A stretch of 64,000 nt of DNA from Thermoplasmata archaeon (lineage in GTDB: Archaea; Thermoplasmatota; Thermoplasmata; Lutacidiplasmatales; UBA184): the NCBI GenBank assembly GCA_021817245.1, contig JAKAVQ010000001.1, positions 212,265 to 276,264 of the forward strand. The letters run 5' to 3'. The first letter of the stretch is position 1, and each line of letters begins with the position of its first letter. Below the pieces are notes generated by a model that worked only from the letters and a program-made list of their open reading frames with translations, did no database searches and was not told the DNA's origin. A program made the translations under genes and the position numbers. Shown piece by piece: positions 48,647 to 62,188 of the stretch.

Positions 48647-48670
48647 ACACGTTGACGTCGGAGAACGGTC

Positions 48671-51600
48671 ATGAGTACACAGGGGTCCGCCCAGGACCCG
48701 AACGGCGACCCGGTCGGGGGGATCCACGCGCACTGGCACGCGGTCGAGGAAGCGGAGTCGCGCCCCGACCGAGGGCGGTACCTGGGGGCGCTCAAGGGGT
48801 TCCTTGCGTTCGCCGAGGGCCACGCGGCGGAGCTCGCCAACGCCGCGGCGGAGGCGACCCCGCTGCTCGAGGAGGCCGCGATGGCGTTCTCTCGGGCGGG
48901 CCAGCCGGACTTCGCCCGTCGGGCGGTCGACCTCGGGCTCTCCCTCACCCCGGGCTCCGCCTCGCTGCTCCACCAGAAGGCGCTCGTCCTGCTCGCGCAG
49001 AACCAGGACCTTCCCGAGGTCGTCCGCCTTACCGACCAGGCTCTCGAGGCGAACCCGCACGACAAGGGCCTCTGGGCGACGCGGGCGGATGCGCTTCGGC
49101 TTGAGGGGCTTACGGCCGAGGCGGTCGAGTCGTATCTCAAGGCCCAGCAGCTCGACGCGGCATCGACCCAGTACGTCGACAAGGCCCTCAAGATCGCACC
49201 GCGCGACCCCCGCGTTCTCCGTACGAAGCTCGACCTCGCCCGCGCGCTCGGCGGCGAACTGCCGGCCCTCGCGGCGTGCGAGGAGCTCCTGAAGGAGCGG
49301 CCGGACGACCTCGAGCTCCTCGATGCCCGGGCGGAGCTCCTCGCCGCCCTCGGCCGGACCGAGGAGGCGCTCGAGCCGCTCGCCCGGGTGCGGGCCGCGC
49401 TCCCGGACGACGTCCGGTCCAACCTGCTCGCGGTCCGCCTGCTCGTCCGTCTCGGACGGGACGAGGAGCTGCTCCCGATCGCGAAGGCGATCGTGGAGGG
49501 CGTTAAGGCCCCGGATCCCGCGGCGCTCGGCGAGATCGCCCACCTCACCGAGACGAAGTTTCCCGAGCTGGCGCTCTCCGCGCGGGAGCACCTCAAGGAC
49601 CTCGACCCGAGGAACCTCCAGAACCTGCTCGATCTGCGGACGCTCGCGACGCGGCTCGACCAGCCCGAGATCGCGCTCGCGGCACTGCGCACCGTCCTCT
49701 CGACTCAGCCCGACAGCCTCGAGGCGATGCGGGGGATCGCCGAGATCGAGCTCGGCCAGGGCCACGGCGAAGCGGCCCTCGAAGCGTACCGCGCGCTCGC
49801 CAAGGCGCATCCCCACGCGGTGAGCGAGCTCCGGAAGGGGCTCGATGCCGCCCGGGAGCTCGGACGCCCGGACCTCCTCCTCGAGTTCGCGCGGGCGATC
49901 CTGGGCGAAGATCCCGCCGACCTCGCCGCGCAGGTCGCGCTGGCCCGAACGCTCGCGTCCGCCGGGCAGCTCGCCGAAGCGCTCCGGGCCTACGACGCCC
50001 TCCTCGCCGCGCACCCCGGCGATCTCGACTACCTTCTCGAGAAGAAGGACGTGGTGGCCCGCGCGGACGATCCGGTCGCTCTCGCCTCGGTGCTGGACGA
50101 CCTGTTCCGCCTCGATCCGACGCGCACCGAGGTCGCCGTGGAGCGCGGGAACCTCCACCTGAACCTCGCGTACGACCGGCCGGAAGGTTCGGCCGAGCGA
50201 GAGCGCGATGCGCGGACCGCGCTCGTCTCCTACGAGCGGGCATCCACGGACCCGCAGGCGGCCGCCATCGCCGGTCTCGGGATCGCCCGCGCCTCTCGAT
50301 TGATCGGGGACCACGAACGGGCGATCCGCGCCTACGAGAGCTTTCTCGCCCCCCCCTCGAACCAGGGGCGGTACGACATCCTGAAAGAGCTCGGTCACGC
50401 GCTCCGGGAGACCGGACGATACTCCGAGGCCGCGGAGGCCTACGGCCGCGCGATCTCGGGCGGCCTCGAGGACCCCGACCTTTTCTGGGGGGCCGCCGAG
50501 GTGCTCGCCCAGCTGAACCAGGACGCCCGGGCCCTGCAGCTGCTCGACCTCCTGCTGCGACGGGAGCCGTCGAACCCCCTCTATCTCCGACGCAAGGGCC
50601 AGCTCCTCCTCAAGGCCGGTCGCCGCGCGGACGCGCTCGCGGTCCTGCAGCAGGCGGTGGCGAGCGCGCACGGGGACCCCCACGCGTACTTCGAGGTCGC
50701 GGAAGCGCTGCGGGCCCAGGGAGCGTACGCCGACGCGGTCTCGTACTACCGGCGCGGGATCGGCCTCGACCCGAAGAACCGCCACGGGCGGCTCGCGCTC
50801 GCCGAGACGCTCGGGCTGGCCGGTCAGTACTCGGAGGTCGTCGACCTCATCGACCCGCTGCTCACCGAGGACCCGAACGATATCGCCGCTTGGAGGGTCC
50901 GGGGCGACGCGCTCCGGGCCCTCGGCCGGCCATCGGAGGTCCTCTACTCCCTACGGGCGATCCTCCTTCTCGAACCGGACAACGGCCCGGCCCTCCTCGA
51001 GATGTACCGTCTCCATCGCGACGCCAAGGAGACGAAGGAGGCGTTCGAGACGCTGAGCCGGCTTCTCGCCTCCGACGCTCCCGAGGCGCAGGACGCGACC
51101 CTCCAGCTCGAGCGCGGAGACCTCGCGGCCAGCCTCGGTCTTACCGAGGAAGCGAACGGCTCCTACGAGCGCGCCGCGCAGATCGACCCGGTCTACGGCG
51201 TCGAGATCGCGATCCGCCGCGCCCGACTGCGCCTCACCGCCGGTCGTCCGGATCTCGCCCTCGAGGTCCTCGACGAGGGGCTGAAGGGCCACCCGGAAGG
51301 TGCGCCGCCGAACCTCGGGGCGCTCCTCCTTCGGGCCGAGATCCTCGACGCGCTCGAGCGACCGGCCGAGTCCCGGGCCGTCTACGAAGAGGTCCGCCGC
51401 CGGGAGCCGAAATCCCCGGTCGCGCTCGCCGGCATCGCGCGGGCGATGCTCGCCCAGGGTCAGCACGCGGACGCCGCGGAGTTCCTGCGCGCTTCGATCC
51501 CTCAGGTGCCGCCGCAGGAATCCCTCTACCTCCTTCTCGCCGAGGCCGAAGGGGGGCTCGGCCACCTCGACCGAGCGACGGAGGCGGTCCGGGAGGGGAC

Positions 51601-53272
51601 CAAGGTCCTCCCGAAGAGCGTCGCGCTCTGGCGCCGCCTCGGAGAGCTCGGGGTGGCCCTGCAGGCCTGGGCCGACGCCGCGGGCGCGTTCGCGCACGCC
51701 CTCTCGATCGCTCCGGCGGAGCTCGAAGTGCTGCTGCGCGCCGGCTTCGTCGCCGAGCGGATGGGGCATCCGAACGAGGCGCTCGCGTTCTACGAGCGCG
51801 CGACGGAGGCCGATCCCGCGTCGAAGCAGGGCTGGACCAGCCGGGGGCTCGCGCTCCTCGCCACGTCCCGGCCCAATGACGCGACGCTCTCCTTCGACCG
51901 CGCGCTGGCGCTCGACTCGGACTACGCCCCCGCGAAGGACGGCAAGAAGGTCGCCTCCCAGAAGACCCGGGACGTCGAGATCCAGAAGCACGGCCGGGAG
52001 GCGCTTCTCCTCGAAGCCCGGCTGAACCGCACGGTCGCGAAGAACGATCTCTTCGTCACGCTCCACGTCCCGTACGAGTTCCTCGAGCCGGTGCTGAGCG
52101 CGATCGGACGGACGCCGAAGATCGACCTCGAGACGCTCGAGGCGGGGGAGGTCCGGGACCTCGAGAACGCCTCCTACCATCTCATCACGTCGGCCCTCGA
52201 GCGGCGTCCCCCCGGGATCGAACGCCGGGGGTTCACGCTCGCGGACGTGGCCGTCCTCGCCCCCCCCGCGTACGCCCTCGACCAGATCCAGCGGCTCTTC
52301 GGCTACCTGAAGGCGGTCCTCGAGGCCGACCTCCGCGCGGAGAACCTTTCGCTCACGCCCGACGTCGAGGAGCTCGCGCGCCAGGCGCTCGGGCTGCCGG
52401 CGGAGCAGCGCACCCTCTTCCAGATCGTGAAGAACCTGCGGGTCGGGATCTTCAAGGCCCGGCTCATCAAGGTCGTCGAGGCAGCGGGAAGCGCGGTCCA
52501 CGCGCCGCTGCCCTCGCTCGATCTCGGCGCCTACTCCCCCGAGTTCCGCAGGGCGGAAGGAGAGGAGGCCGCCTCCGACGGAGAGCGGTTTTTCGCCCCT
52601 GAAAACACCCCGGGGCCCTCCGCGATCGACGCCGTCCCGGCCGGGCACCCCGACTGGTCGGCCGAGCCGCTCCCGGCCGCCCACGTTCCCGAGGCCCTAG
52701 CGCCGTCGGGCCCGGCGGCGCCGGGGCCCGTCCCCGGAGGCTCGGCCCCGGCCCGGTGCGTCGGGTGCGGAGGGATCGCCTCCGTGGTCCACGTCTGTTC
52801 CGCTCCGCTCTGCCAGCACTGCATCGGCCAGTTCCCGAACTGCCCGAAGTGCGGGGAGCCGGTCTCCACCGACTCGACGCATCCGGTGGAGGGGGTGGTC
52901 GTCGTGCGAGCGGCCGCACCGCACTCGGCCGCGCATCCGACCGGTACGCTGAGCGGCTTGCGCGGGGTCTTCGGCCGGTCCAAGTCCGGCCCGTCGAAGG
53001 GCGAGGCGCCGACCGCCCACCCGACCGCGGGAAAGCAGGAGCACCCGCTGAAGCCGGCCCACACCCCGCCCGAGAAGTCGCATCCCTCCGCGGCGCCGGC
53101 CACCGCGCTGCCGGCGCCGAAGAGGGACACCCCCTCTCCGACGCCGGGCCACCCGCCGACCGCCAAGGAACCGAAGCCGGTTCCCGGAAAGCCGATCGCC
53201 GAACCGCCCCCGCCTCCACCCACCCCTCCGCGCCCTCGCCGGGAGAAGCGGGACGACGAGCCCCGTCTCTGA
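48671..53272 (+). CDS. giant TPR-repeat protein (1533 aa) with C-terminal Zn ribbon and Pro-rich tail
   Basis: Dozens of 34-residue TPR-like repeats (A/L/E/R-rich with a W/Y-x-x-A/G-x-A pattern); …CVGCGGIASVVHVCSAPLCQHCIGQFPNCPKCGEP…; final ~150 aa P/K/T-rich. Confidence 0.8.
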   Translation: MSTQGSAQDPNGDPVGGIHAHWHAVEEAESRPDRGRYLGALKGFLAFAEGHAAELANAAAEATPLLEEAAMAFSRAGQPDFARRAVDLGLSLTPGSASLLHQKALVLLAQNQDLPEVVRLTDQALEANPHDKGLWATRADALRLEGLTAEAVESYLKAQQLDAASTQYVDKALKIAPRDPRVLRTKLDLARALGGELPALAACEELLKERPDDLELLDARAELLAALGRTEEALEPLARVRAALPDDVRSNLLAVRLLVRLGRDEELLPIAKAIVEGVKAPDPAALGEIAHLTETKFPELALSAREHLKDLDPRNLQNLLDLRTLATRLDQPEIALAALRTVLSTQPDSLEAMRGIAEIELGQGHGEAALEAYRALAKAHPHAVSELRKGLDAARELGRPDLLLEFARAILGEDPADLAAQVALARTLASAGQLAEALRAYDALLAAHPGDLDYLLEKKDVVARADDPVALASVLDDLFRLDPTRTEVAVERGNLHLNLAYDRPEGSAERERDARTALVSYERASTDPQAAAIAGLGIARASRLIGDHERAIRAYESFLAPPSNQGRYDILKELGHALRETGRYSEAAEAYGRAISGGLEDPDLFWGAAEVLAQLNQDARALQLLDLLLRREPSNPLYLRRKGQLLLKAGRRADALAVLQQAVASAHGDPHAYFEVAEALRAQGAYADAVSYYRRGIGLDPKNRHGRLALAETLGLAGQYSEVVDLIDPLLTEDPNDIAAWRVRGDALRALGRPSEVLYSLRAILLLEPDNGPALLEMYRLHRDAKETKEAFETLSRLLASDAPEAQDATLQLERGDLAASLGLTEEANGSYERAAQIDPVYGVEIAIRRARLRLTAGRPDLALEVLDEGLKGHPEGAPPNLGALLLRAEILDALERPAESRAVYEEVRRREPKSPVALAGIARAMLAQGQHADAAEFLRASIPQVPPQESLYLLLAEAEGGLGHLDRATEAVREGTKVLPKSVALWRRLGELGVALQAWADAAGAFAHALSIAPAELEVLLRAGFVAERMGHPNEALAFYERATEADPASKQGWTSRGLALLATSRPNDATLSFDRALALDSDYAPAKDGKKVASQKTRDVEIQKHGREALLLEARLNRTVAKNDLFVTLHVPYEFLEPVLSAIGRTPKIDLETLEAGEVRDLENASYHLITSALERRPPGIERRGFTLADVAVLAPPAYALDQIQRLFGYLKAVLEADLRAENLSLTPDVEELARQALGLPAEQRTLFQIVKNLRVGIFKARLIKVVEAAGSAVHAPLPSLDLGAYSPEFRRAEGEEAASDGERFFAPENTPGPSAIDAVPAGHPDWSAEPLPAAHVPEALAPSGPAAPGPVPGGSAPARCVGCGGIASVVHVCSAPLCQHCIGQFPNCPKCGEPVSTDSTHPVEGVVVVRAAAPHSAAHPTGTLSGLRGVFGRSKSGPSKGEAPTAHPTAGKQEHPLKPAHTPPEKSHPSAAPATALPAPKRDTPSPTPGHPPTAKEPKPVPGKPIAEPPPPPPTPPRPRREKRDDEPRL

Positions 53273-53331
53273 AGGGACCGGGGGAACGAGCCCTCTTATA
53301 GTCGGCCCGGCCTTTTCGCGCCAGGTGGTCC

Positions 53332-53889
53332 ATGGCGAGCCCTTCGACCGGTCTTCGGCCGGTGCGCGACCGTTGGAGCGGCGCGGTGCTGACCGCGCTG
53401 TTCCTCGTCCTCGCGGTCCTCATCTTCGCGGCGCTGTACTTCGCCTTGCCGGCGCAGTCCCACTTCTACGCGTTGATCGCGATCGGAATCGTCTCCCTCC
53501 TCTTCGCGCTCGGATCCTACCTCGCGGAGGCCGCGTCGAAGCAGCCGACCGCCCAGCGGTCGCTCGCGTGGGGGTTCTTCGGTATGGGGTTCGCCGTGCT
53601 CCTGCTCACGGTCGGTCTCAGCACGACCTACGGGATCCTTGGCATCACGGCGGCGCTTGTCGGCCTCATCCTGATCGTCGTGGTCCTCTTCGTCACGGTC
53701 CTGCTGATCGCCTGGCGGGGCCGGGCCGTGCGCGCGACCGAGAACCAGCAGGTCGCCCGCGCGGCCTGGAGGGCGGAGTCCGCTCCGTCGGCGTTCTCCT
53801 ACGCGACCGCGAACTCGCCGAGCGTCCCCCAGACCGTGCCGGCGCCCCCGACCGGCGGTCCGGCGTCCCCGCCTCCCCGGAGTCCGTAA
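53332..53889 (+). CDS. integral membrane protein (4 TM helices) with Pro-rich C-terminal tail
   Basis: AVLTALFLVLAVLIFAALYFAL…, YALIAIGIVSLLFALGSYL…, LAWGFFGMGFAVLLLTVGL…, ITAALVGLILIVVVLFVTVLLIAW…. Stop is 1 nt before the next ATG. Confidence 0.65.
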   Translation: MASPSTGLRPVRDRWSGAVLTALFLVLAVLIFAALYFALPAQSHFYALIAIGIVSLLFALGSYLAEAASKQPTAQRSLAWGFFGMGFAVLLLTVGLSTTYGILGITAALVGLILIVVVLFVTVLLIAWRGRAVRATENQQVARAAWRAESAPSAFSYATANSPSVPQTVPAPPTGGPASPPPRSP

Positions 53890-53890
53890 G

Positions 53891-54592
53891 ATGGCGACCA
53901 ACGCAAATCCTGCGCCCGCACCGGTCCCGACCCCGACCGTCTGCCCAAAGTGCGGCACCCCGGCCCCCGCCGGGGTCCGCTTCTGCGGAGCGTGCGGTTC
54001 GTCGCTGACGGTCGTCTCGGGCAGCTCGACCGGGACGCTTCCGCCCGCGGCCGCTCCCCCGGTCGATCTCCGTCAGACGGTCGAGGCGAACCGGGGGTGG
54101 CTCAAGCGGCTCCAGCTGCTGATCCCCGGTTTCCGAGGCTACCGTCAGGGGGAGGATATCCGGGAGGCGGACGCCTTCCTGCGCCTCCAGGTCGCCGACA
54201 AGATCCGCAACGCACGCACGACCGTCGAGAACAGCCGCGCGGGCCTCGCGAACGCCGGCCAGTTCGGGGTCCTGAACGACCTGTCGCCGCTGATCGCGAA
54301 CCTCTGGCAGCTCGAAGGAGAGGTCCGCCATGCCGAGCAGGGGTATACGGGCATCTCGCCGGCGGTGCGCGTCAACCCCCAGCAGCTCGACCGCCTCTAC
54401 GAGTACGACTACGGGTTCGCGCAGGCGGCCGACCAGCTGAACACCACCGTCTCCTCGCTCCCCGAGTTGCTCCTGGGTGGGGACGCAACGAAGGCGCCCG
54501 GGGTGATCGCGGCGGCCCGCGGCGAGGTCAACCAGCTCGGCCAGGCGTTCAAGGCGCGTCTCCAGGTGATCGAGGGGATCCGCATCTCGTAG
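53891..54592 (+). CDS. N-terminal Zn-ribbon protein with helical C-terminal domain
   Basis: CPKCGTPAPAGVRFCGACGS (C-x2-C-x10-C-x2-C), a Pro/Ala linker, then a ~170-aa mostly helical domain. Confidence 0.6.
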   Translation: MATNANPAPAPVPTPTVCPKCGTPAPAGVRFCGACGSSLTVVSGSSTGTLPPAAAPPVDLRQTVEANRGWLKRLQLLIPGFRGYRQGEDIREADAFLRLQVADKIRNARTTVENSRAGLANAGQFGVLNDLSPLIANLWQLEGEVRHAEQGYTGISPAVRVNPQQLDRLYEYDYGFAQAADQLNTTVSSLPELLLGGDATKAPGVIAAARGEVNQLGQAFKARLQVIEGIRIS

Positions 54593-54619
54593 CGAGTACC
54601 GGCCGAACGGAGGAGAACG

Positions 54620-55780
54620 ATGGTCACGAACAACCCGATCCCGGCGAAGGGCGGCAGTCTCATCGGCGCGACGACGATCAACTGGGAGGACGTCTACAAG
54701 GGCAACAACGTCCTCTGGCGCGTTCCGCGGAACATCCGCTGGAACGACAACATCGTGGTCCGTGAGGACGAGACCGCGGTCTTCTACCGGGACGGAAAGG
54801 TCCTTGCGTACCTCGATAAGCCGGACCGGTACGCGCTCACCAGCATGAACACCCGCCTGGTCGGCGGGGTGATTCAGGCGCTCTCGGGGGTCCGCCAGGA
54901 GGCGGAGGTCTACTACCTCCAGCGCCGCATCTTCGACGGGAAGTTCGGCAGCGCCGAACCGTACGTCTTCCGCGACCCGGACTTCGGCCTCGTGAACCTG
55001 CGAGTCTTCGGCAGCTACCGCTGGCGCGTCGGCGCGCCGGACAACTTCATCAATCAGTTCGTCGGGACGTTCGGCGCCGTCTCGACGCCCGACGTCGAGG
55101 CGCGTCTGCGGGACCAGATGGTCCTTTTGATCTACAACACGCTCGGCAAGATGAAGGAGCAGGGGCTGCGGGTCACCGACCTCGCCGCCCAGGTGATGAC
55201 GATCGAGCAAGCCGTGCTCGGCTTCGCCCCCCAGCATTTCGGACCTCTCGGGGTCGAGATCAACCAGCTCCAGGGCCTTTCGATCAACCTGCCCGACGAG
55301 GTCACGAAGGCCGTCAACACCCGCTCGAAGATGGGGGTGCTCGGCGTGAACTACATGCAGTACCAGGCCGGCCAAGCGATGACCACCGCGGCCGCGAACC
55401 CCTCCGGAGGTGCCGGCGCGATGGCCGGCGCCGGTGTCGGGCTCGGAGCGGGCCTCGGGATCGGGTACGGCATGGTCGGCCAGATGCAGGGCGCCTACGC
55501 CGCCGGGCCGAGCCAGCCGTGCCGGAAGTGCGGGGCGATGGTCCCGGCCGGGACCCGGTTCTGCCCGAGCTGTGGCAACCCGATGACGGCGCCGCCTCCG
55601 GAGGCGGCCGGGCCCCCATGCCCGAAGTGCGGGCAACCGACCGCTCCGGGCGCGAAGTTCTGCCCGAGCTGCGGAGCGTCGCTCGCACCGGCTCCTCCCC
55701 GAAAGTGCCCGAAGTGCTCGGCGGACGTTCCGGCGGCGAGCAGGTTCTGCCCGAGCTGCGGCACCGCTATGGGGCCGTGA
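54620..55780 (+). CDS. SPFH/Band-7-like (Band_7_1, YdjI-type) protein with three C-terminal Zn ribbons
   Basis: N-terminus …WEDVYKGNNVLWRVPRNIRWNDNIVVREDETAVFYRDGKVLAYLDKPDRYALTSMNTRL…EVYYLQRRIFDGKFG… resembles the PF13421-type SPFH family. The C-terminus carries CRKCGAMVPAGTRFCPSCG, CPKCGQPTAPGAKFCPSCG and CPKCSADVPAASRFCPSCG. Confidence 0.7.
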   Translation: MVTNNPIPAKGGSLIGATTINWEDVYKGNNVLWRVPRNIRWNDNIVVREDETAVFYRDGKVLAYLDKPDRYALTSMNTRLVGGVIQALSGVRQEAEVYYLQRRIFDGKFGSAEPYVFRDPDFGLVNLRVFGSYRWRVGAPDNFINQFVGTFGAVSTPDVEARLRDQMVLLIYNTLGKMKEQGLRVTDLAAQVMTIEQAVLGFAPQHFGPLGVEINQLQGLSINLPDEVTKAVNTRSKMGVLGVNYMQYQAGQAMTTAAANPSGGAGAMAGAGVGLGAGLGIGYGMVGQMQGAYAAGPSQPCRKCGAMVPAGTRFCPSCGNPMTAPPPEAAGPPCPKCGQPTAPGAKFCPSCGASLAPAPPRKCPKCSADVPAASRFCPSCGTAMGP

Positions 55781-55835
55781 CCCCGACGGAGCGCACGGGC
55801 GGACCGACCACCCTCCCCCACCAAGGTAGAGACTG

Positions 55836-56813
55836 ATGTTCTGCGAGAAGTGCGGCACGCAACTGCCCGACGACGCACGCTTCTGCTCCAAGTGCGGCAC
55901 GCCGACCGGGGGAGGGGGCGCGTCCCCGACCGCGGCGTCCTCCGCCCCTTCGCCTCCCTCTCTCGCGCCTTCGGGAGCCCAGGAGCTGAAGTGCCCGAAT
56001 TGCGGTGCGCCGATCAAGCCGGTCCTCGGCGAGATGGTCATCACCTGCGACTACTGCGGTGGCTCGGTCACGCTCGGTGGCGCCGGATGGAAGGAGATTA
56101 ACAAACACACGATGCTGACGCTCAAGGTCGCGGACCGCGCGGCGGCCCTCGAAGTCGTCCGCGCGTACCTCGACCAGGGCTTCTTCCACCGCCACTTCTT
56201 CGAGGAGGCGAAGCTCGTCGAGGGGCGGCTCAGCTTCGTGCCGTTCTGGGTCCTGCCGGCGTCGGCGTCGACGACGTACCAGTACCAGGCCGTTGCGACG
56301 AGCGTCGGCGCGACGGTCGGCACGATCGCCGCGGGCGCCTTGCTCGGCAGCGCGCTCAGCGGCGGCCGCGGGGGCGGCGGGTTCGGTGTGATCCCGATCA
56401 TGGCCGGCCCGGTCGTGAACCCTACCCGCTCTGCCACGATCTCGGGACAGTACGAGTACCCGGTCGTCGCCGTCAAGGCGATGGATCAGTACCAGCCGAA
56501 GGACTACCGGTTCGCCCTCGGCGACCGGACGCTGTTCGACCGCAAGTCGATCCCGAGCGGCACCGCGGTCCTGAACGGAGATCTCGGCGAGGATGCCGCG
56601 CAGCACGCCGCGAAGGCGTACGTCCAGCAGATCCAGTCGGAGGAGGCGCATCACAAGCACAGCATGGTCTCGAACCTCCGGTGCGAGGTCGATGTCTCGG
56701 ACGGGGAGCTCCTCCACGTTCCGATCTGGTACTTCCGGTTCGAGCACAAGGATGCCCAGCCCGCGGTGATCGTGGACGGGAACGCCGGTCGGGTCATCCA
56801 GACGGTCACCTAG
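55836..56813 (+). CDS. double Zn-ribbon protein with C-terminal beta-rich domain (YdjG-like?)
   Basis: MFCEKCGTQLPDDARFCSKCG and CPNCGAPIK…CDYCGG, followed by a ~230-aa domain (…RLSFVPFWVLP…LLHVPIWYFRFEH…). Confidence 0.6.
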   Translation: MFCEKCGTQLPDDARFCSKCGTPTGGGGASPTAASSAPSPPSLAPSGAQELKCPNCGAPIKPVLGEMVITCDYCGGSVTLGGAGWKEINKHTMLTLKVADRAAALEVVRAYLDQGFFHRHFFEEAKLVEGRLSFVPFWVLPASASTTYQYQAVATSVGATVGTIAAGALLGSALSGGRGGGGFGVIPIMAGPVVNPTRSATISGQYEYPVVAVKAMDQYQPKDYRFALGDRTLFDRKSIPSGTAVLNGDLGEDAAQHAAKAYVQQIQSEEAHHKHSMVSNLRCEVDVSDGELLHVPIWYFRFEHKDAQPAVIVDGNAGRVIQTVT

Positions 56814-56903
56814 GCGCCCCTCGGACCGTGGGGAGCGCGTCCCCCCGGCCCGCCGCGCGGGGGAAGGTTTACGTATAGGTCCCTGACCTCGTTCTCAGAT
56901 AGG

Positions 56904-59900
56904 ATGGGCGCCGCGCCGGGGGAGGGATTCGCTCGTCAGTGGGCCGGGACGCGCGGACCGTTCGTGGTCCCCCTCATCATCGCGCTGCTCCTTCTGGCCC
57001 CGACCGGGGCTGCGGCCGTCGGCACCGGGCCTCACGGGACCGCGGTCCCCCTGCTCGGCTTCGCAGGCACCGACGGAACGGTGCGCCTCGCCGCTCGCGC
57101 CATCTCTCCGGCTGCGTTCGTGCCGAGCCCTTCCGGGATCCGAGGAGCAACGCTGCTATCGCCCGCGAGCGCCGGGGCGGTCCTCCGAACCCTCTTCCCC
57201 AACTACAACGCGACGCTTCCCGGCAACTTTTCCGGATCCGTCGCCGGTTGGCAGATCGGTACCCCAGCGTACGACCCCGTGACCGGCCTCTTGTGGCTCC
57301 CGAACCGGGCCGTCGCCGTAGGCTCCGCCCTCCCTCCCCCGGTCGCACCCGCGATCCTGTACAACGCGACCACGAACCAGTTCGAGGGATTCGTCCCCTC
57401 GCTGGAGAACACCTCCGCCTTTGCGTATGATCCAGCGAATGGGCGGATCTACTCGGCCGACTACGCGAACGGGACAGTCGGCGTGGTCGACCCATCAACG
57501 CGCGCGTGGATCCACCGAGCGATCCCCGTGGGGGTTCAGCCGGCAGCTCTCGCCCTGAACGGCACCACCGGACAGCTTTACGTGGCGAACAAGGGCTCCG
57601 ACAATATCACGATCATCGACACCGGCAACGAGTCCGTGGCCATCGGCGGAATCCCGCTGGGAGGAAGCCAGCCGTTCGCACTCGCGCTGGACGGTGTCGA
57701 TCGCCGCCTCTTCGTCGCGGATGCTGGTGACAAGACTGTTCAGACTATCGACACCAAGACCAACACAACTGGCCCTAGCATCCCTTTGTTCGCAAACCCG
57801 GGAGGTCTCGCATTCTCAGCGTCCACCGACACGCTCGGAGTGACGATGCCTTCACAGGCGTTACTCGTTCTCGCAGCCGGTAGCAACCTCGCGGTCAAGA
57901 CCGTTCCAGTGCAGACCGGGATGTCCCCTATCTTATCGAACGTGACTGGAACCTCGTTCATCGTCGGTAACCAAGCTGGCTCAGATCTACAAGTTGTCAA
58001 CCTCACCGCGGCACCCCCAGCAGTTGTGGGTTCTCCAATCTCCGTGGGCACCAACGTCACCCAGCTTACCGGGGGCCCTACTCGCAACTCCCTGTTCGCC
58101 TGGGCCACAGGTTCGAGGAACCTAAGCGTGGTTGACCTGAATACGAGCAGCGTCTTGGCGGTCTCGCCGACTCTCGGTCCCCTACCGGGGAGCGTGGCGT
58201 ACGACCCCACGACCAATCGACTGTTCGTGGCGGACCGCTCCGGTAGCTCCGTCATCGTCCTGAACGCGACGTCGGGCGCTGCATCCGCCCGCAACATCGG
58301 GTTCGGCTCCGAGGTGTTCTCGGTGGCCGTGGACCCCATCTCCAACCTCCTCTACGTCGGGACGATGGGCGCCGTCGATGCCCTCGATGCCCAGACGGGG
58401 TCGCTTGTGGCGAGCAACACCGGTCTCTCGGGCGTCAATGATCCGTTGCTCATCGACGCTGGGGATTCCGAGCTCTGGGTCGCGAACAACCAGACTTCCT
58501 TGGTGGCGCTTGATATCGGCAACCTCACCACGCGGTTCGCGGTCGCGGTACCGGTCCGCGGGACCGGCGAGGACACGATGGCGCTCGATCCGTCCCTGCA
58601 CGAGCTGTTCGTGATCAACGCGATCTCGGGCGCGTTGGACGTGATCGACACCGTTACCGGAGAGATTCTCACCTCAGGAGTTCCCGCGGGACCCGCCCCT
58701 TCGGCGCTGGCGTACGATTCGGCGGACGGGCTCCTCTACGTGCTCGGATCGAACCTCACCGCGATCGACCCAGTGACGCGTCAGATCGTGGCCTCGGACC
58801 TTCCCCTGCCGGCGCATTCGTTCTCCCTGAGCATCGCGTTCGATGCCTCCCGCTCCTTCCTCTACATCACGACCTCGGGGCCCGCACCCGCATACCCCTC
58901 CACCGTCACCGTCCTGGACGGTTCGTCCCTCACCGCCAGTTCGGTTTCGATGGTAACGATCCCCGTCGGACAGCTCGCATCGGACGTGGTGCCGGCGATG
59001 CTCTCGGGGTCGTCGACCTCGTCCTACGCCCCCATCTGGGTCACGAACTACGCCGCGGAGACCGTGAGCCTCATCACGAGTCCGCCCGCGATCACCTACT
59101 TCCGGGCATCTCCCGACCGGGTCGATGCGGGTCAGTCCGCTCAGTTCCTGCTCGGCATCTCGGGAGGGTCGGGCGCGGTGATGGTCTCCTACTCCGGACT
59201 CCCTCCGGGGTGCTCCTCTGCCAACACGGCCACGCTGAATTGCACCGCGCTCGCCGCGGGGAACTACACCGTGAGCGCGACCGTGACCGACAGCTACGGG
59301 CTCGCGGCGAGCGCGACCACAGCGCTCGTCGTGGGAATCGGACCCACCGCCCGTATCGGTTTCGGTCCCGGTAGTGGGCCCATCGTGGACGTGGGCACGA
59401 ACCTCTCGATGCTCGCGAACGTCACCGGGGGGACGAGCCCGTACAACGAGACCTGGTACTTCGGAGACAACAGCGTCGCGTACGGCCCGACCGTTGTTCA
59501 CCGGTACCTCGCACCCGGCTTCTACCTGGTGAACCTGACCGTGAAGGACGCCTCTCAGGTCGTCGTCGCGACCTCGGCCGGTGTCCAGGTCAACCCTCCG
59601 CCCGCGTGTGCGATCGCGGTCTCTCCGTCGAACCGCACGGACCTCGGCGTCCCGATCAGCTTGCGGGCGACCGTGGCAGGTGGCACTTCGCCGGGCACAT
59701 CGACTTGGGCCTTCGGAGACGGATCGAACGCGACCGGCCTCGCGGTCTCCCATGCATGGGTTCGGGCCGGTACCTACACCGTGGACTTCCGCTACGTCGA
59801 TGCGGTGGGCTCGGTGGCTACCGCCGTCCTCGGCATCACGGTCGGAGCTACCCTCAACGCGGTCTTTTCGATCCGCACCCCCGCTTCGGGCACCTCCTTC

Positions 59901-60287
59901 GATGCCGGCCAAGCCCTCGACTTCGTCGCGACGGTGACGGGCGGGGTCGCCCCCTACAACGTCTCCTGGTCGTTCGGCGACGGCTCGTTCGGTGGCGGCC
60001 TCTTTACGACCCACAGCTACGGGAACGCGGGCTCCTACTCCATCTCGGTCGTGCTCACCGACGCGGGAGGCGGGAGAGTCAATGCGACGCTCCCGCTCAG
60101 TGTCGGGGGAGTCGGGACCGGGACCGCTTCGCCGGACGCGCAGCTCTTCCTCGGCATCCTGATCGGCGGCGCCATCGCCGCGATCATCCTCTTCGTCACG
60201 GGCCGCCCGCGCCGGGGCCCGCCGCCCCCGCCGTCGCCGTACGTTCCGCCCGCCGGGATCGCCGAGCCTGAGTGGAAGGAGTCCTAG
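56904..60287 (+). CDS. cell-surface protein: signal peptide, YVTN-type beta-propeller repeats, PKD domains, C-terminal TM anchor
   Basis: FVVPLIIALLLLAPTGAAAV leader; repeated …G..P.(G/A)(L/I)A(Y/L)D…..LYV(A/T)N… ~40-aa units; PKD signatures WYFGDNSVAYGP, WAFGDGSNATG, WSFGDGSFGGG; LFLGILIGGAIAAIILFVTGRPRRG anchor. The minus ORF 58674..60362 is shadow. Confidence 0.85.
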   Translation: MGAAPGEGFARQWAGTRGPFVVPLIIALLLLAPTGAAAVGTGPHGTAVPLLGFAGTDGTVRLAARAISPAAFVPSPSGIRGATLLSPASAGAVLRTLFPNYNATLPGNFSGSVAGWQIGTPAYDPVTGLLWLPNRAVAVGSALPPPVAPAILYNATTNQFEGFVPSLENTSAFAYDPANGRIYSADYANGTVGVVDPSTRAWIHRAIPVGVQPAALALNGTTGQLYVANKGSDNITIIDTGNESVAIGGIPLGGSQPFALALDGVDRRLFVADAGDKTVQTIDTKTNTTGPSIPLFANPGGLAFSASTDTLGVTMPSQALLVLAAGSNLAVKTVPVQTGMSPILSNVTGTSFIVGNQAGSDLQVVNLTAAPPAVVGSPISVGTNVTQLTGGPTRNSLFAWATGSRNLSVVDLNTSSVLAVSPTLGPLPGSVAYDPTTNRLFVADRSGSSVIVLNATSGAASARNIGFGSEVFSVAVDPISNLLYVGTMGAVDALDAQTGSLVASNTGLSGVNDPLLIDAGDSELWVANNQTSLVALDIGNLTTRFAVAVPVRGTGEDTMALDPSLHELFVINAISGALDVIDTVTGEILTSGVPAGPAPSALAYDSADGLLYVLGSNLTAIDPVTRQIVASDLPLPAHSFSLSIAFDASRSFLYITTSGPAPAYPSTVTVLDGSSLTASSVSMVTIPVGQLASDVVPAMLSGSSTSSYAPIWVTNYAAETVSLITSPPAITYFRASPDRVDAGQSAQFLLGISGGSGAVMVSYSGLPPGCSSANTATLNCTALAAGNYTVSATVTDSYGLAASATTALVVGIGPTARIGFGPGSGPIVDVGTNLSMLANVTGGTSPYNETWYFGDNSVAYGPTVVHRYLAPGFYLVNLTVKDASQVVVATSAGVQVNPPPACAIAVSPSNRTDLGVPISLRATVAGGTSPGTSTWAFGDGSNATGLAVSHAWVRAGTYTVDFRYVDAVGSVATAVLGITVGATLNAVFSIRTPASGTSFDAGQALDFVATVTGGVAPYNVSWSFGDGSFGGGLFTTHSYGNAGSYSISVVLTDAGGGRVNATLPLSVGGVGTGTASPDAQLFLGILIGGAIAAIILFVTGRPRRGPPPPPSPYVPPAGIAEPEWKES

Positions 60288-60748
60288 CGCGCCGATCGCC
60301 CGTCGATGCCGGCCTGGGAGAACACGTAGCGGACCGGGACCCGTCGGGTCCCGTGGGTCCAATAGTCGCAGCGGGTGCAGCGCTGGCCCAGGGTCACGGT
60401 GTCGCCGGTGAGCGTCCGATTCTTGATCGGGTGCAGCTCCGAGGCACAGACCGGGCAGCGTTCGAGGGGCCGCGGGTCGTCCCGCTCGGTGTAGCGCACG
60501 CTCAGCCGAACGCCGGGGACGTCGATCAGCAGACGACGGAGTCGGGCCCCTCCCAGCGCCGCGAGCGGTTCGTCCCGGCGGATCTGACGGAGCAGCGCAT
60601 CCAGGAACGCCGTCTGCGAAGAGAACGTCGCCTTGCTTCCACGAACGACCCGGCGCGCGGCCCGCTGGACGAGCTCGGCGGCCGGACGGCGGAACTTCAC
60701 CGACCCGGTGACCTTATCCGGCACGGCCGTGGCCCCCTTCTCGGGCAC
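60284..60748 (-). CDS. hypothetical protein with C-terminal Zn ribbon
   Basis: …RCPVCASELHPIKNRTLTGDTVTLGQRCTRCDYW…. Overlaps the upstream AAA+ gene's 3' end by ~35 nt (possibly a later GTG start). Confidence 0.45.
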   Translation of the reverse strand: MPEKGATAVPDKVTGSVKFRRPAAELVQRAARRVVRGSKATFSSQTAFLDALLRQIRRDEPLAALGGARLRRLLIDVPGVRLSVRYTERDDPRPLERCPVCASELHPIKNRTLTGDTVTLGQRCTRCDYWTHGTRRVPVRYVFSQAGIDGRSAR

Positions 60749-62165
60749 GGATCTCCTCCTCGTAGAACCGGCGGGCGAGGTCGACCTCGAGCTTCCCGAT
60801 CGTGAGCGCGGAGGACGCGGGTTCCTCGAAGTAGCGGAGCAGGGCGGCGGCCGCGGCGAGTCGGACCGCGCGGAGCTTGAGGCGGGGGGAGAACTTCGGG
60901 AAGTTGGTCTTCGATAGCGCGCGCTCCGAGACCTCCCTCAGGCGGTCGTAGAGGTTCCGGTCGAGACGCACGGGCCGTGCGCGAAACTTCCCGGAGAGGA
61001 GCGGATGGCCGGTCTCGATCGCGTGGACCAGGGTCAGGTGGTCCCGGATCGCGGCGGCAAGGGCGAACTCGAGCTCGCCCAGCTCCAGCCGCTCGGCGCT
61101 CGCCTCGACCGCGCGGAACCGCGCGCGGGTCATCGGGTGGAAGCGCAGCAGCATGCGGTCCTCGAGGGCGGCGAAGTTGGGGTCGCCGATCGTAGTCCAA
61201 TAGTCCTGCGCGCCCGAGACACGGACGTTGTAGTTCACCGAGAAGAAGGAGCGGAAAGTGTAGGGGCCGACCGTGCCGAGGGTGGTCTCCCACTTCACCT
61301 CCCGCTGCTCCATGACGAGCTTGAGCGGCTCGACCATCCCCCGATACTTGAACCAGTCATTGAACTCCGGCACGATGAAGTTGAACGTGCGCCCGGAGTA
61401 GGATGACCCGACTCGGAGGAACTGTACGGGAGTGATCCCGCCGCAGTAGCGATTGCGCCCGGGGAGTCCGTGCGCAGGGACCCCGCTCCGCGGATTCCCG
61501 CGGATCAGGTCATCGATCGAGAACGTCTTCCCGGTCCCCGGGGGCCCGAAGAGCGCCAGATGGAACCCGGTCGCGCCGGTCGTGCGCCCCGTCGGCGCGA
61601 TCATCGGGGCGTCCGCGAGCGCGTACTGCTGCAGGATCGAGATCAGCGAGTCGAAGTAGAGCTCCTCGCCGAAGAGGTCCTTGAGGTACTCGGCGAGCTT
61701 CGCGACCTGGAACGACCGGCCGAAAGCAACGGTCGGTTCGAGCCGTGCGCGCAGCACGTCCCGGAGGTGATCGAGGAACTCCGAGTCCATCGAGCGGATC
61801 TCGGCCCGCTCGTCGGGGACGGGCATCACGGGTCCAGGTTCCGGGCTTTCGGACCGCTCGGCCTCGTCCAGCAGGAGCCGGAGGAGTTCCTCGGGGTACG
61901 GCACCTGATAGGTCCGATCCCCGCTTCCGGCCGTCAGCTCGAGGAGGAGCCCCCTTCGCTTAAGGCGGGTCAGGAGGCGGGCCGGGTCCTCGAAGATCCG
62001 GTCGCGGAGGAGTCGACCGCGCAGTTCGGAGAGACGGAAGCGGGCGACCTGCTGGGCCACGCCCCGCACCGTGCGGCGGCGGTCCGAATCGCCGACGACC
62101 TGGGCAAGCACCCGCGCGATGGGAACCTCGCCCGCGCTCAGGTCGACCGACACCGGTGCGGCCAT
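60714..62165 (-). CDS. AAA+/P-loop ATPase-domain protein of unassigned family (483 aa)
   Basis: Walker A FHLALFGPPGTGKTF preceded by an N-terminal ~180-aa helical region. Start chosen at MAAPVSVDL (62165) because a TATA-like GAATATAAGG lies 25 nt upstream on the minus strand. The ORF's first 116 codons were rejected. Confidence 0.6.
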   Translation of the reverse strand: MAAPVSVDLSAGEVPIARVLAQVVGDSDRRRTVRGVAQQVARFRLSELRGRLLRDRIFEDPARLLTRLKRRGLLLELTAGSGDRTYQVPYPEELLRLLLDEAERSESPEPGPVMPVPDERAEIRSMDSEFLDHLRDVLRARLEPTVAFGRSFQVAKLAEYLKDLFGEELYFDSLISILQQYALADAPMIAPTGRTTGATGFHLALFGPPGTGKTFSIDDLIRGNPRSGVPAHGLPGRNRYCGGITPVQFLRVGSSYSGRTFNFIVPEFNDWFKYRGMVEPLKLVMEQREVKWETTLGTVGPYTFRSFFSVNYNVRVSGAQDYWTTIGDPNFAALEDRMLLRFHPMTRARFRAVEASAERLELGELEFALAAAIRDHLTLVHAIETGHPLLSGKFRARPVRLDRNLYDRLREVSERALSKTNFPKFSPRLKLRAVRLAAAAALLRYFEEPASSALTIGKLEVDLARRFYEEEIRAREGGHGRAG

Positions 62166-62188
62166 CGGCCCGGCGAGTCCGCCCACCG

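What the first reader, a model, noticed from the sequence alone, without database searches (positions are those of the whole stretch)
53332..56813. Four-gene zinc-ribbon-rich SPFH module (membrane protein – Zn-ribbon/helical – SPFH with 3 Zn ribbons – double-Zn-ribbon protein)
Four co-directional, closely spaced genes carry six predicted Zn ribbons, an SPFH (Band_7_1-like) scaffold domain and a 4-TM membrane protein. The architecture recalls the B. subtilis ydjG–ydjH–ydjI envelope-stress module (double Zn-ribbon protein + SPFH protein linked to PspA). An archaeal counterpart with this many ribbons has not, to my knowledge, been characterised. It may be a membrane-remodelling or stress scaffold.
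Basis: partly seen in the sequence, partly recalled or inferred. Interest (0 to 1): 0.65.

Follow-up and report, generated by a model that had tools for sequence, protein, structure and literature searches.

The report
Conserved archaeal SPFH zinc-ribbon membrane module
Four neighbouring genes of a soil Thermoplasmata archaeon encode a conserved, uncharacterised membrane-scaffold complex, part of which is related to a Bacillus subtilis membrane-stress module, and it includes a partner protein family that has not been described.

Summary
Window 53332-56813 holds four real, co-directional genes:
- g1: a 4-TM protein.
- g2: a Zn ribbon plus a four-helix bundle.
- g3: a Band_7_1 SPFH domain, a Gly/Ala-rich segment and 3 Zn ribbons.
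- g4: 2 Zn ribbons plus an alpha/beta domain.

All six ribbons have (near-)invariant cysteines.

The order g1-g2-g3-g4 is kept in 70-77 of 74-77 testable Thermoplasmata species genomes, behind a conserved TATA-like element.

In mostly Bathyarchaeia metagenome loci, a g2-like gene is always followed by the SPFH gene (62/62). It usually comes with a g4-like gene (36/51) and a different small 4-TM protein (28/35).

g3 and g4 are homologues of the bacterial YdjI/YdjG-type pair. The g4 profile matches proteins encoded next to Band_7_1 genes in Paracoccus and Enterococcus (hhalign 97%).

The module has no YdjH (TPM/DUF4178) counterpart. No PspA/ESCRT-III gene lies in the 64-kb window or near the Bathyarchaeia modules.

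g2 is an unannotated family with only a weak link to Leptospira LIMLP_15305. It is not PspA-like by sequence or by fold search.

Best reading: a membrane-anchored SPFH scaffold or sensor complex, an archaeal variant of the YdjGHI/SamGHI kind. Its function is inferred, not shown.

The parts
53296..53301 (+). TATA-like element (TTATAG) 31-36 nt upstream of the g1 start codon. It is the probable archaeal promoter of a g1-g4 transcription unit.
   Evidence: An A/T run (TTATA, TAATA or ATATA) lies at -33 to -41 of the g1 start in 73 of 75 Thermoplasmata loci, in a GC-rich background. Promoter function is inferred, not tested.
53332..53889 (+). g1: a 185-aa basic (pI 10.9) integral membrane protein with four predicted TM helices and a roughly 55-aa Pro-rich basic C-terminal tail. 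It is the presumed membrane anchor.
   Evidence: Hydropathy is. There is no Pfam or NCBIfam family above cutoff. It is present directly upstream of g2 in 74/74 testable Thermoplasmata loci at 36-72% identity. Its stop codon and the g2 start are 1 nt apart (TAAGATG). It is not demonstrably homologous to the Bathyarchaeia 4-TM protein (hhalign prob 0.8%).
53891..54592 (+). g2: a 233-aa protein made of an N-terminal Zn ribbon, a disordered linker, a conserved PGFRGY motif and a four-helix bundle. It is the obligate partner of the SPFH gene.
   Evidence: Pfam Zn_Ribbon_1 matches aa 18-39. The AF2 model has helices 89-121, 125-151, 163-188 and 199-232 at pLDDT about 90. It is adjacent to g3 in 77/77 Thermoplasmata loci. 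g2-like genes are followed by the SPFH gene in 62/62 metagenome loci. hhalign to the L087 homologue gives 98.8%, E 6e-17. The NCBIfam LIMLP_15305 match is weak (E 2.5e-8, below cutoff).
53942..53995 (+). g2 Zn ribbon (CPKC...CGAC, aa 18-35).
   Evidence: C18, C21, C32 and C35 are invariant in 45 sequences. The ribbon is absent from the Bathyarchaeia g2-like proteins.
54092..54184 (+). g2 signature motif LKRLQLLIPGFRGYRQGEDIREADxFLR (aa 68-98).
   Evidence: P, G, G, Y, E, R, D and R are invariant across the Thermoplasmata, Bathyarchaeia and L087 lineages. It was used as the search pattern that retrieved 518 metagenome relatives.
54620..55780 (+). g3: a 386-aa cytoplasmic SPFH (Band_7_1) scaffold protein with a Gly/Ala-rich segment and three C-terminal Zn ribbons.
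   Evidence: Pfam results are. More than 2246 homologues were found, and the top 120 are 78-99% identical. At least 579 GTDB species genomes encode a relative. Mean column identity is 84%.
54722..55339 (+). SPFH / Band_7_1 domain of g3 (aa 35-240).
   Evidence: PF13421 matches at E 1.2e-32, covering profile positions 7-211 of 211.
55385..55498 (+). Near-invariant Gly/Ala-rich, glycine-zipper-like segment of g3 (aa 256-293).
   Evidence: Invariant columns run from G263 to G287. Hydropathy is moderate, with a maximum of 1.33. Equivalent segments occur in the Bathyarchaeia, L087 and Paracoccus homologues. YdjI is reported to have a low-complexity region at the same place (PMC8581546).
55520..55759 (+). 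Three tandem Zn ribbons of g3 (aa 301-318, 334-351 and 363-380).
   Evidence: There are three Zn_Ribbon_1 stretches. All 12 Cys are invariant.
55836..56813 (+). g4: a 325-aa protein with an accessory Zn ribbon (aa 3-20), the family-core Zn ribbon (aa 53-74) and an alpha/beta domain carrying a conserved Gly/Ala-rich insert (aa 150-195). It is a YdjG-family relative without a TM anchor.
   Evidence: Pfam results are and the alignment. The AF2 model is of low to moderate confidence (pLDDT 60). The profile search found 50 clusters at E<1e-30 and 244 at E<1e-10; distant members carry C-terminal TMs. hhalign to bacterial YdjG-like proteins gives 97%. g4 is adjacent to g3 in 70/74 loci.
48671..53272 (+). 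A 1533-aa TPR protein with a C-terminal Cys-rich ribbon (aa 1363-1394) and a Pro-rich tail. It is a clade-specific upstream neighbour and only a possible accessory, not part of the core.
   Evidence: Pfam TPR families match. It lies upstream in 51/56 Thermoplasmata loci but is absent from the L087 and Bathyarchaeia modules. It appears to be a separate transcription unit, because the TATA-like element lies between it and g1.

Best explanation
The four genes encode one membrane-associated SPFH complex.

- g3 is a soluble Band_7_1 SPFH protein and is the oligomerising scaffold.
- g3 is held at the cytoplasmic face of the membrane by the 4-TM protein g1 and by g4, a YdjG-family Zn-ribbon/alpha-beta protein.
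- g2, a four-helix-bundle protein with a conserved PGFRGY motif, binds g3 stoichiometrically as an adaptor or regulator.
- The short PF13240-type Zn ribbons hang on flexible linkers at the ends of g2, g3 and g4. They act as protein-protein (or membrane-proximal) tethering modules.
- The near-invariant Gly/Ala-rich segments of g3 and g4 mediate membrane-interface contact or glycine-zipper-type packing.

By analogy with B. subtilis SamGHI/YdjGHI, the complex most likely senses or buffers perturbation of the cytoplasmic membrane, or organises a membrane microdomain. It does so without a genomically linked PspA/ESCRT-III effector.

Shown here: gene reality, domain content, homology of g3 and g4 to the YdjI/YdjG families, and strict gene linkage across two archaeal phyla.

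Inferred: physical complex formation, topology, the roles of the ribbons and the Gly-rich segments, and the physiological function.
For: Linkage within Thermoplasmata: in 80 GTDB species genomes, g2, g1 and g4 are adjacent to g3 in 77/77, 74/74 and 70/74 testable loci. A TATA-like element is conserved upstream of g1 in 73/75 loci. The intergenic gaps are tight and g1/g2 nearly overlap.

Linkage in other lineages:
- In 80 metagenome loci, those checked named as Bathyarchaeia, the g2-like gene is followed by Band_7_1 in 62/62. A g4-like gene lies upstream in 36/51 and a 4-TM protein downstream in 28/35.
- In L087 the order is g2-like, then SPFH, then two g4-like proteins that each carry 2 TM helices.

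The membrane anchor is therefore always provided, but in three different ways.

Homology of g4 to bacterial Band_7_1-linked ZnR proteins rests on hhalign at 97%, with the operon contexts.

Published function of the bacterial relatives: YdjG and YdjH recruit soluble YdjI to the membrane, and SamI restrains SamGH signalling (PMC8581546; bioRxiv 10.64898/2026.02.06.704340).
Against: No interaction, localisation or expression data exist for any archaeal member.

The g4 structural model is weak (pLDDT 60) and no g3 model was made.

Fold searches against the PDB gave no significant match for g2 or g4, so their biochemical roles rest on context only.

g4 is missing from two Ca. Lutacidiplasma loci, and no g4-like gene was found upstream of g2 in 15/51 of the mostly Bathyarchaeia loci. 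g4 may therefore be dispensable.

All 80 Thermoplasmata loci also share flanking synteny (d154/d599 in 38/38). Within that clade, conservation of gene order alone is weak evidence. The argument rests on the cross-phylum comparison.

The B. subtilis sequences themselves could not be compared directly.
Confidence: 0.6

Rival explanations
1. The module works exactly, as a recruitment platform for a PspA/Vipp1 or ESCRT-III membrane-remodelling protein encoded elsewhere in the genome. This would mirror YdjI localising PspA in B. subtilis.
For: g3 and g4 are homologues of the YdjI/YdjG families. YdjI is required for PspA foci (PMC8581546). Thermoplasmata are reported to carry minimal Vps4/ESCRT-III systems, and SPFH+ZnR proteins occur in some archaeal ESCRT loci (PMC11188069).
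Against: No PspA_IM30, Snf7 or Vps4 gene lies in the 64-kb window, in the Bathyarchaeia +/-10 kb neighbourhoods, or in the Paracoccus, Enterococcus or Comamonas loci. In B. subtilis the developmental phenotype of samI is PspA-independent (bioRxiv 10.64898/2026.02.06.704340). Whole genomes were not available to test co-occurrence.
Confidence: 0.2
2. The complex is an SPFH cage or regulator for a membrane protease or another membrane enzyme encoded elsewhere. This would be the HflK/C-FtsH, stomatin-NfeD or QmcA-YbbJ logic, and would serve membrane-protein quality control.
For: This is the commonest established role of prokaryotic SPFH proteins (summarised in bioRxiv 10.64898/2026.02.06.704340). 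A solo g4-like gene in Nitrososphaeria lies between an M48 (HtpX-like) and an HtrA-like protease gene.
Against: No protease or NfeD gene lies in any of the modules examined. No long coiled-coil was seen in the g3 sequence between the SPFH domain and the Gly/Ala-rich segment; this region was read by eye and no coiled-coil prediction was run. Such a coiled-coil forms the cage wall in HflK/C-type proteins.
Confidence: 0.12
3. The module is an anti-virus or abortive-infection system that uses a membrane effector.
For: It consists of small multi-gene cassettes with Zn ribbons, and membrane proteins are common in defence islands. PspA-type systems were first seen as phage-induced.
Against: There are no PADLOC hits for any of the genes. 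The module sits at a fixed syntenic position in the core genome of 80 species, not in variable islands. It is highly conserved in sequence (g3 72-88% identical). There are no nuclease, NTPase or toxin domains.
Confidence: 0.04
4. The four genes are functionally unrelated neighbours kept together only by shared ancestry of closely related genomes.
For: Flanking synteny is also conserved in the Thermoplasmata set: d154/d599 in 38/38 and TPR in 51/56.
Against: The g2-SPFH pair, with g4-like and a TM component, recurs in loci of another phylum (those checked are Bathyarchaeia) and in L087, with different flanks and a permuted order. The SPFH/g4-like pair also recurs in Proteobacteria, Actinobacteria and Firmicutes.
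Confidence: 0.03

Closest known systems
Bacillus subtilis PspA-YdjGHI (renamed SamGHI) envelope-stress module
   Same: Both have a soluble Band_7_1 SPFH protein with a low-complexity Gly-rich region and C-terminal Zn finger(s) (YdjI compared with g3). Both have a partner with Zn ribbons followed by an alpha/beta domain (YdjG compared with g4). The g4 profile matches YdjG-type proteins of Enterococcus and Paracoccus at hhalign 97%. In both, membrane anchoring is supplied by partner proteins and the genes form one operon.
   Different: There is no pspA in or near the archaeal module and no TPM/DUF4178 YdjH-type protein. g4 has lost the C-terminal TM, and a separate 4-TM protein (g1) is present. 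An extra, strictly linked four-helix-bundle protein (g2) has no Bacillus counterpart. The archaeal module has six ribbons instead of about three.
Bacterial Band_7_1 + 'TFIIB-type zinc ribbon-containing protein' dyads (Paracoccus pPAN3, Comamonas, Tsukamurella, Vibrio, Enterococcus megaplasmids)
   Same: The SPFH(Band_7_1)-Gly-rich protein is followed by a 2xZnR-alpha/beta protein. The g3/g4 order is the same.
   Different: The bacterial SPFH C-termini carry GYF_2, HTH or DZR instead of three ribbons. The bacterial partner has its own TM. The neighbours differ (TelA/DUF2927, TPM). No g2-like gene was found: tblastn of the L087 g2-like protein against 72,556 plasmids found nothing.
Ralstonia-type DUF350 - Band_7_1 - DUF4178 - SpeD operons (polyamine-linked PSP-like contexts of PMC11237479)
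   Same: A Band_7_1 SPFH protein is flanked by a small membrane protein and a Zn-ribbon-bearing partner.
   Different: The partner domain is DUF4178, not the g4 alpha/beta domain. Polyamine genes are present. There is no g2.
SPFH-NfeD and HflK/C-FtsH systems (stomatin/PH1511-PH1510, QmcA-YbbJ)
   Same: An SPFH scaffold is encoded in an operon with a dedicated membrane partner.
   Different: The SPFH subfamily is different: those proteins are membrane-anchored and form a coiled-coil cage. No NfeD or protease is present here.
SPFH + coiled-coil + Zn-ribbon proteins of the 'Meth_adaptin' archaeal ESCRT loci (PMC11188069)
   Same: Both are archaeal SPFH proteins fused to a Zn ribbon.
   Different: Those lie next to Vps4/ESCRT-III and adaptin-like genes and contain a coiled-coil. 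The present module has neither.

Membership tests
SPFH superfamily, Band_7_1 subfamily (PF13421) - g3 | Sequence match to the family model above the curated threshold over the full domain. | tested here: met
   113.7 bits against a cutoff of 24, E 1.2e-32, profile positions 7-211 of 211.
SPFH superfamily, Band_7_1 subfamily (PF13421) - g3 | SPFH alpha/beta fold and higher-order oligomerisation. | not tested
No Band_7_1 structure was found in the PDB by sequence.
YdjI/SamI-type architecture | No TM segment; SPFH followed by a low-complexity region and C-terminal Zn finger(s) (PMC8581546). | tested here: met
   No segment reaches KD 1.6. The Gly/Ala-rich segment spans aa 256-293 and there are three ribbons at aa 301-380.
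YdjG/SamG-type protein - g4 | Zn ribbons followed by the family's alpha/beta domain, homologous to bacterial Band_7_1-linked proteins. | tested here: met
   hhalign of A1 against the Paracoccus 428-aa protein gives 97.1%, E 5e-11 over 245 columns. Against the Enterococcus 374-aa Zn_Ribbon_TF protein it gives 97.4%, E 1.2e-11 over 98 columns. B. subtilis YdjG itself was not available.
YdjG/SamG-type protein - g4 | C-terminal transmembrane anchor. | tested here: not met
   g4 has no C-terminal hydrophobic segment. It has only an internal Gly/Ala-rich stretch at aa 150-177 (KD 1.65). Distant relatives and the bacterial proteins do have C-terminal TMs.
   No TPM or DUF4178 hit at E<=0.1 in g1, g2 or g4. 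Both domains were readily detected in the bacterial loci.
PspA-YdjGHI/SamGHI module | A pspA (ESCRT-III superfamily) gene in the operon or nearby. | tested here: not met
   Pfam gene tables and scans covering the whole window show no PspA_IM30, Snf7 or Vps4. None lies within +/-10 kb of the Bathyarchaeia module. The rest of the genome was not available.
PspA-YdjGHI/SamGHI module | Stress-inducible expression and recruitment of the SPFH protein to membrane foci. | not testable with these tools
   This requires experiments.
PspA / ESCRT-III superfamily - g2 | Match to PspA_IM30 or Snf7 models, or to the ESCRT-III fold. | tested here: not met
   No such Pfam hit for g2 or for 15 diverse family members at E<=1. 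PDB profile searches found nothing. The Foldseek top hits are generic four-helix bundles at E>0.1, with no PspA, Vipp1 or CHMP among the 50 best-ranked hits shown.
NCBIfam LIMLP_15305 family (NF047596) - g2 | Score above the equivalog cutoff (210 bits). | tested here: not met
   g2 scores 34 bits (E 2.5e-8, aa 85-226). L087 g2-like scores 42 bits (E 8e-11). This suggests a shared helical domain, not membership.
SPFH-NfeD / SPFH-protease operons | An NfeD or membrane protease gene adjacent to the SPFH gene. | tested here: not met
   None was found in the window module or in the L087 and Bathyarchaeia modules.
Known anti-phage defence systems | Match to any PADLOC-DB model. | tested here: not met
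   0 families for g1-g4, TPR, d154 and d599.

The most novel reading that the evidence does not exclude
The g2/SPFH pair, together with g4-like and a 4-TM anchor, is a previously unrecognised, PspA-independent archaeal membrane-integrity machine shared by Thermoplasmatota and Bathyarchaeia. In it the new four-helix-bundle family (g2) is the functional effector or regulator. It would occupy the slot that PspA or YdjH fills in bacteria, which would make the SPFH/YdjG-like dyad an ancient core onto which different effectors were grafted in Bacteria and Archaea.
Probability: 0.3. Interest if true: 0.7.

Novelty: new variant of a known kind. Interest (0 to 1): 0.5.

Why it matters
SPFH proteins are universal membrane organisers, but the Band_7_1 branch has been studied only in B. 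subtilis (YdjI/SamI). This finding has three consequences.

1. It shows that the YdjI/YdjG-type pair extends into two archaeal phyla that are abundant in soils, peat and sediments.
2. It shows that the archaeal version has no genomic link to PspA/ESCRT-III.
3. It shows that the SPFH gene has a strictly linked partner family (g2) with no annotation and no structural relative.

The result is a defined, small, highly conserved set of four proteins. That set could be expressed and imaged to ask how Band_7_1 scaffolds assemble, and what archaeal membranes, which have ether lipids and no peptidoglycan, use for stress sensing.

Tried and rejected
- **PDB sequence-profile searches.** Searches with the g2, g3 and g4 alignments found only Zn-ribbon matches.
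- **g2 as PspA/ESCRT-III.** Rejected.
- **g1 as a homologue of the Bathyarchaeia 4-TM protein.** Not supported (hhalign prob 0.8%). There is only a suggestive local similarity of the TM2-TM3 loop.
- **Defence-system reading.** Rejected.
- **First window gene look-up.** The look-up with ORF 16169-17860 failed because no such gene was called.
- **L003 as an annotation source.** L003, from a sister assembly, turned out to diverge from the window beyond position 42038. Window 41-46 kb was therefore re-scanned directly.
- **Taxon of L087.** The taxon (GCA_040961035.1) could not be named because the sources give no organism.
- **g2-like proteins on plasmids.** Searching 72,556 plasmids for g2-like proteins (query: the L087 homologue) found none.
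- **B. subtilis YdjG/H/I sequences.** None of the accessible collections holds them. The link to that module goes through the Enterococcus and Paracoccus homologues and the published domain descriptions.

Full report
**Observation**

The window is about 71% GC and comes from a Thermoplasmata MAG (ENA ERZ27237336 contig k141_87850; also GCA_021827545.1). It carries archaeal ribosomal protein genes, TFB and eIF6.

Four + strand ORFs lie exactly at the stated coordinates:

| Gene | Coordinates | Length |
|---|---|---|
| g1 | 53332-53889 | 185 aa |
| g2 | 53891-54592 | 233 aa |
| g3 | 54620-55780 | 386 aa |
| g4 | 55836-56813 | 325 aa |

Public gene calls on two assemblies are identical.

Pfam gives the following:
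- g3: Band_7_1 at E 1.2e-32, plus three Zn_Ribbon_1 stretches.
- g2: one Zn ribbon.
- g4: two ribbons.

g1 has four hydrophobic helices. All 24 ribbon cysteines are invariant across the aligned homologues, except g4 C3, which is nearly invariant (at least 90%).

Five of the six ribbons are the same short CxKCG..(x)..FCxxCG type (PF13240). They sit on low-complexity linkers at protein termini. The sixth (g4 aa 53-74) is the ribbon intrinsic to the g4 family.

**Anatomy**

*g1* is basic. The positively charged N-terminus and four TM helices predict an N-in/C-in topology, with a roughly 55-aa Pro-rich tail in the cytoplasm (inference).

*g2* was modelled with AF2. The model shows a ribbon, a disordered linker (aa 41-87) and a confident four-helix bundle (aa 89-232, pLDDT about 90). 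The bundle is preceded by the invariant motif IPGFRGYRQxEDxRxAD.

*g3* has no TM segment. After the SPFH domain comes a near-invariant Gly/Ala-rich segment (aa 256-293), followed by three ribbons.

*g4* has an alpha/beta domain after its ribbons, with a conserved Gly/Ala-rich insert (aa 150-195). The AF2 model is only moderately confident (pLDDT 60).

The g1 stop codon and the g2 start are 1 nt apart. A Shine-Dalgarno-like GGAGGAG sequence precedes g3.

**Conservation within Thermoplasmata**

Each of g2, g3 and g4 has 700 to more than 2200 homologues, and the top 120 of each are all from Thermoplasmata MAGs.

A scan of one genome per GTDB species found at least 579 relatives of g3. The best 80 loci are all Thermoplasmata apart from one record titled only 'bacterium' (L013). 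They include Ca. Lutacidiplasmatales.

By tblastn, adjacency to g3 in the same order and orientation is as follows:

| Gene | Testable loci with the gene |
|---|---|
| g2 | 77/77 |
| g1 | 74/74 |
| g4 | 70/74 |
| TPR gene (upstream) | 51/56 |
| PKD surface-protein gene (downstream) | 19/38 |
| Convergent d154/d599 pair | 38/38 |

Two Lutacidiplasma-type loci lack g4. In two others it is displaced or fragmented.

Because the wider synteny is also conserved, this set alone cannot prove functional linkage.

A TATA-like element (TTATA, TAATA or ATATA) lies 33-41 nt upstream of the g1 start in 73/75 loci, in an otherwise GC-rich spacer. This suggests that g1-g4 form their own transcription unit, separate from the TPR gene.

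**Conservation beyond Thermoplasmata (the decisive evidence)**

A profile of g4 against 1.8 billion representative proteins found 50 clusters at E<1e-30 and 244 at E<1e-10. The distant members consist of one ribbon, the alpha/beta domain and usually two C-terminal TM helices.

One of these distant members lies in L087, a 49% GC, archaeal-looking MAG. Its context is:
- a g2-like protein (27% identity; hhalign 98.8%, E 6e-17);
- a Band_7_1 protein with a Gly-rich segment and ribbons (27.5% identity to g3);
- two paralogous g4-like proteins, each with 2 TM helices.

A metagenome scan seeded with the g2 motifs returned 518 relatives. The 80 best loci (39-70% GC) are largely Bathyarchaeia, a different phylum. 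ORF and HMM analysis of these loci shows:
- Band_7_1 SPFH immediately downstream of g2-like in 62/62 testable loci;
- a g4-like gene (about 250 aa, one ribbon, no TM) upstream in 36/51;
- a roughly 115-aa 4-TM protein right after the SPFH gene in 28/35.

The typical Bathyarchaeia unit is g4-like, g2-like (without a ribbon), SPFH (two ribbons), then the 4-TM protein. Its flanks are unrelated housekeeping genes, and no PspA or Snf7 gene lies within +/-10 kb.

The Bathyarchaeia 4-TM protein is not demonstrably homologous to g1 (hhalign prob 0.8%).

The four functional slots therefore recur across phyla with a permuted order: the SPFH scaffold, the g2 bundle, the g4 ribbon/alpha-beta protein and a membrane anchor. 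The anchor is supplied in three different ways: g1, an unrelated 4-TM protein, or TM helices fused to g4. The g2-SPFH pair is the invariant core.

**Relation to bacterial systems**

Band_7_1 homologues on bacterial chromids and megaplasmids were retrieved. Their contexts are:

| Organism | Gene order |
|---|---|
| Paracoccus pantotrophus | TelA, DUF2927, Band_7_1+GYF_2, then a 428-aa protein with two ribbons, an alpha/beta domain and a TM |
| Enterococcus gallinarum | Band_7_1+DZR, a 374-aa Zn_Ribbon_TF protein, a TPM-domain protein |
| Comamonas | SPFH+HTH, 'TFIIB-type zinc ribbon-containing protein' |
| Tsukamurella | SPFH, then a homologue of the 428-aa protein |
| Ralstonia | DUF350, SPFH, DUF4178, SpeD |

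The g4 profile matches the Paracoccus 428-aa protein (hhalign 97.1%, E 5e-11) and the Enterococcus 374-aa protein (97.4%, E 1.2e-11).

The published description of the B. subtilis operon is:
- YdjI: band-7 plus a Zn ribbon;
- YdjG: two ribbons, a YpeB-like alpha/beta domain and a TM;
- YdjH: a TPM domain.

These descriptions come from PMC11237479, with the TF_Zn_Ribbon assignment for YdjG from PMC9239133. They fit the Enterococcus trio.

On this basis g3 and g4 are archaeal members of the YdjI and YdjG families.

In B. subtilis, YdjG and YdjH recruit soluble YdjI to the membrane, and YdjI is needed for PspA foci (PMC8581546). More recent work shows that SamI (YdjI) restrains signalling by the SamGH membrane complex, with phenotypes independent of PspA (bioRxiv 10.64898/2026.02.06.704340).

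**What is different**

No TPM or DUF4178 protein is present.

No PspA_IM30, Snf7 or Vps4 gene is in the window. Gene tables from the same contig cover window 1-30452 and 44620-64000. A 99.6% identical sister assembly covers 27857-42038. A direct Pfam scan covers 39-46 kb.

g2 has no Pfam family beyond its ribbon. It has only a sub-threshold match to the Leptospira LIMLP_15305 NCBIfam model. Its L087 homologue has no plasmid-borne relatives. Fifteen diverse members show no PspA or ESCRT-III signal. It has no significant structural neighbour in the PDB.

No PADLOC defence model matches any of the genes.

**Mechanism**

The best-supported reading is a membrane-anchored SPFH complex of the YdjGHI/SamGHI kind (confidence 0.6). 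In this reading:
- g3 oligomerises through its SPFH domain;
- g1 and g4 tether it to the cytoplasmic face of the membrane;
- g2 binds it as an adaptor or regulator, because the g2-SPFH pairing is strict and the genes are tightly coupled;
- the terminal PF13240 ribbons and the Gly/Ala-rich segments provide multivalent contacts.

The physiological role is inferred from the bacterial relatives. It is membrane-stress sensing or buffering, or microdomain organisation.

The rivals are listed with their evidence in the Rival explanations section:
- a PspA/ESCRT-III recruitment platform with the effector encoded elsewhere;
- a protease-regulating cage;
- a defence system;
- fortuitous synteny.

**Novelty and score**

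Literature searches for YdjI/YdjG/PspA, PSP partners, SPFH + zinc ribbon + archaea, PF13421 and LIMLP_15305 found no description of this archaeal module or of the g2 family. The nearest is a remark on SPFH+CC+ZnR proteins in methanogen ESCRT loci (PMC11188069).

It is a new variant of a known kind. Part of a known bacterial SPFH module is shown to extend into archaea, with a new obligate partner and without PspA. A specialist would find this useful but not startling, so the interest score is 0.5.

Noticed in passing
window 60284-60748 (-) and 60714-62513 (-): A convergent pair lies downstream of the module: a 154-aa Zn-ribbon protein and a 599-aa P-loop protein (GPPGTGKT, with only a weak AAA_22 hit). 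Neither has a Pfam, NCBIfam or PADLOC family. The 599-aa gene lies downstream of the module in 38/38 Thermoplasmata loci with enough sequence, whether or not the PKD gene intervenes; the 154-aa gene is detected in most of these but not all. A functional link to the module is unknown.
   Followed up: partly
window 56904-60287 (+): A 1127-aa beta-propeller/PKD surface protein with a C-terminal TM lies between the module and the convergent pair. It is present in only 19/38 related loci, so it is a variable insertion. It has its own TATA-like element (GTATAG) upstream.
   Followed up: partly
window 48671-53272 (+): A giant 1533-aa TPR protein ends in a Cys-rich ribbon (aa 1363-1394, CVGC...CQHC...CPKC) and a Pro-rich tail. 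It lies upstream of the module in 51/56 Thermoplasmata loci but is absent from the Bathyarchaeia and L087 modules.
   Followed up: partly
window about 42038 onward, compared with L003 1-6787 (GCA_027316005.1): A sister assembly is 99.6% identical to window 27857-42038 and then diverges. It carries a resolvase, an N6/N4 DNA methyltransferase and a run of small unannotated ORFs where the window has phosphoglucose isomerase and KaiC-like ATPases. This could be a mobile element or strain-level rearrangement, or an assembly break.
   Followed up: partly
window 43206-46816 (+), 46871-47371 (+), 47295-48560 (-): Two adjacent KaiC-like ATPase genes (one about 911-944 aa), an EVE-domain gene and an HD-domain gene lie just upstream of the TPR gene.
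   Followed up: no
L084/L085 6001-6741 (Nitrososphaeria MAGs): A solo g4-like gene (one ribbon plus the alpha/beta domain, no SPFH or g2 nearby) sits between an M48 (HtpX-like) protease gene and an HtrA-like Trypsin-PDZ protease gene, close to tatA/tatC. This hints at an envelope quality-control context for the g4 family.
   Followed up: no
L051 and L054 (Ca. Lutacidiplasma-type loci): These two loci keep TPR, g1, g2 and g3 but lack g4. The convergent pair follows g3 directly.
   Followed up: no
window 55385-55498 (g3 aa 256-293) and 56283-56420 (g4 aa 150-195): Two Gly/Ala-rich, glycine-zipper-like segments are almost invariant among Thermoplasmata homologues. They are predicted disordered or only moderately hydrophobic. 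A similar segment follows the SPFH domain in the Bathyarchaeia, L087 and Paracoccus proteins. Their role is unexplained.
   Followed up: partly
L091 3476-5898 (Paracoccus pantotrophus pPAN3): In Paracoccus the Band_7_1/YdjG-like pair is preceded by a TelA (toxic anion resistance) gene and a DUF2927 gene. The SPFH protein ends in a GYF_2 domain instead of Zn ribbons.
   Followed up: no
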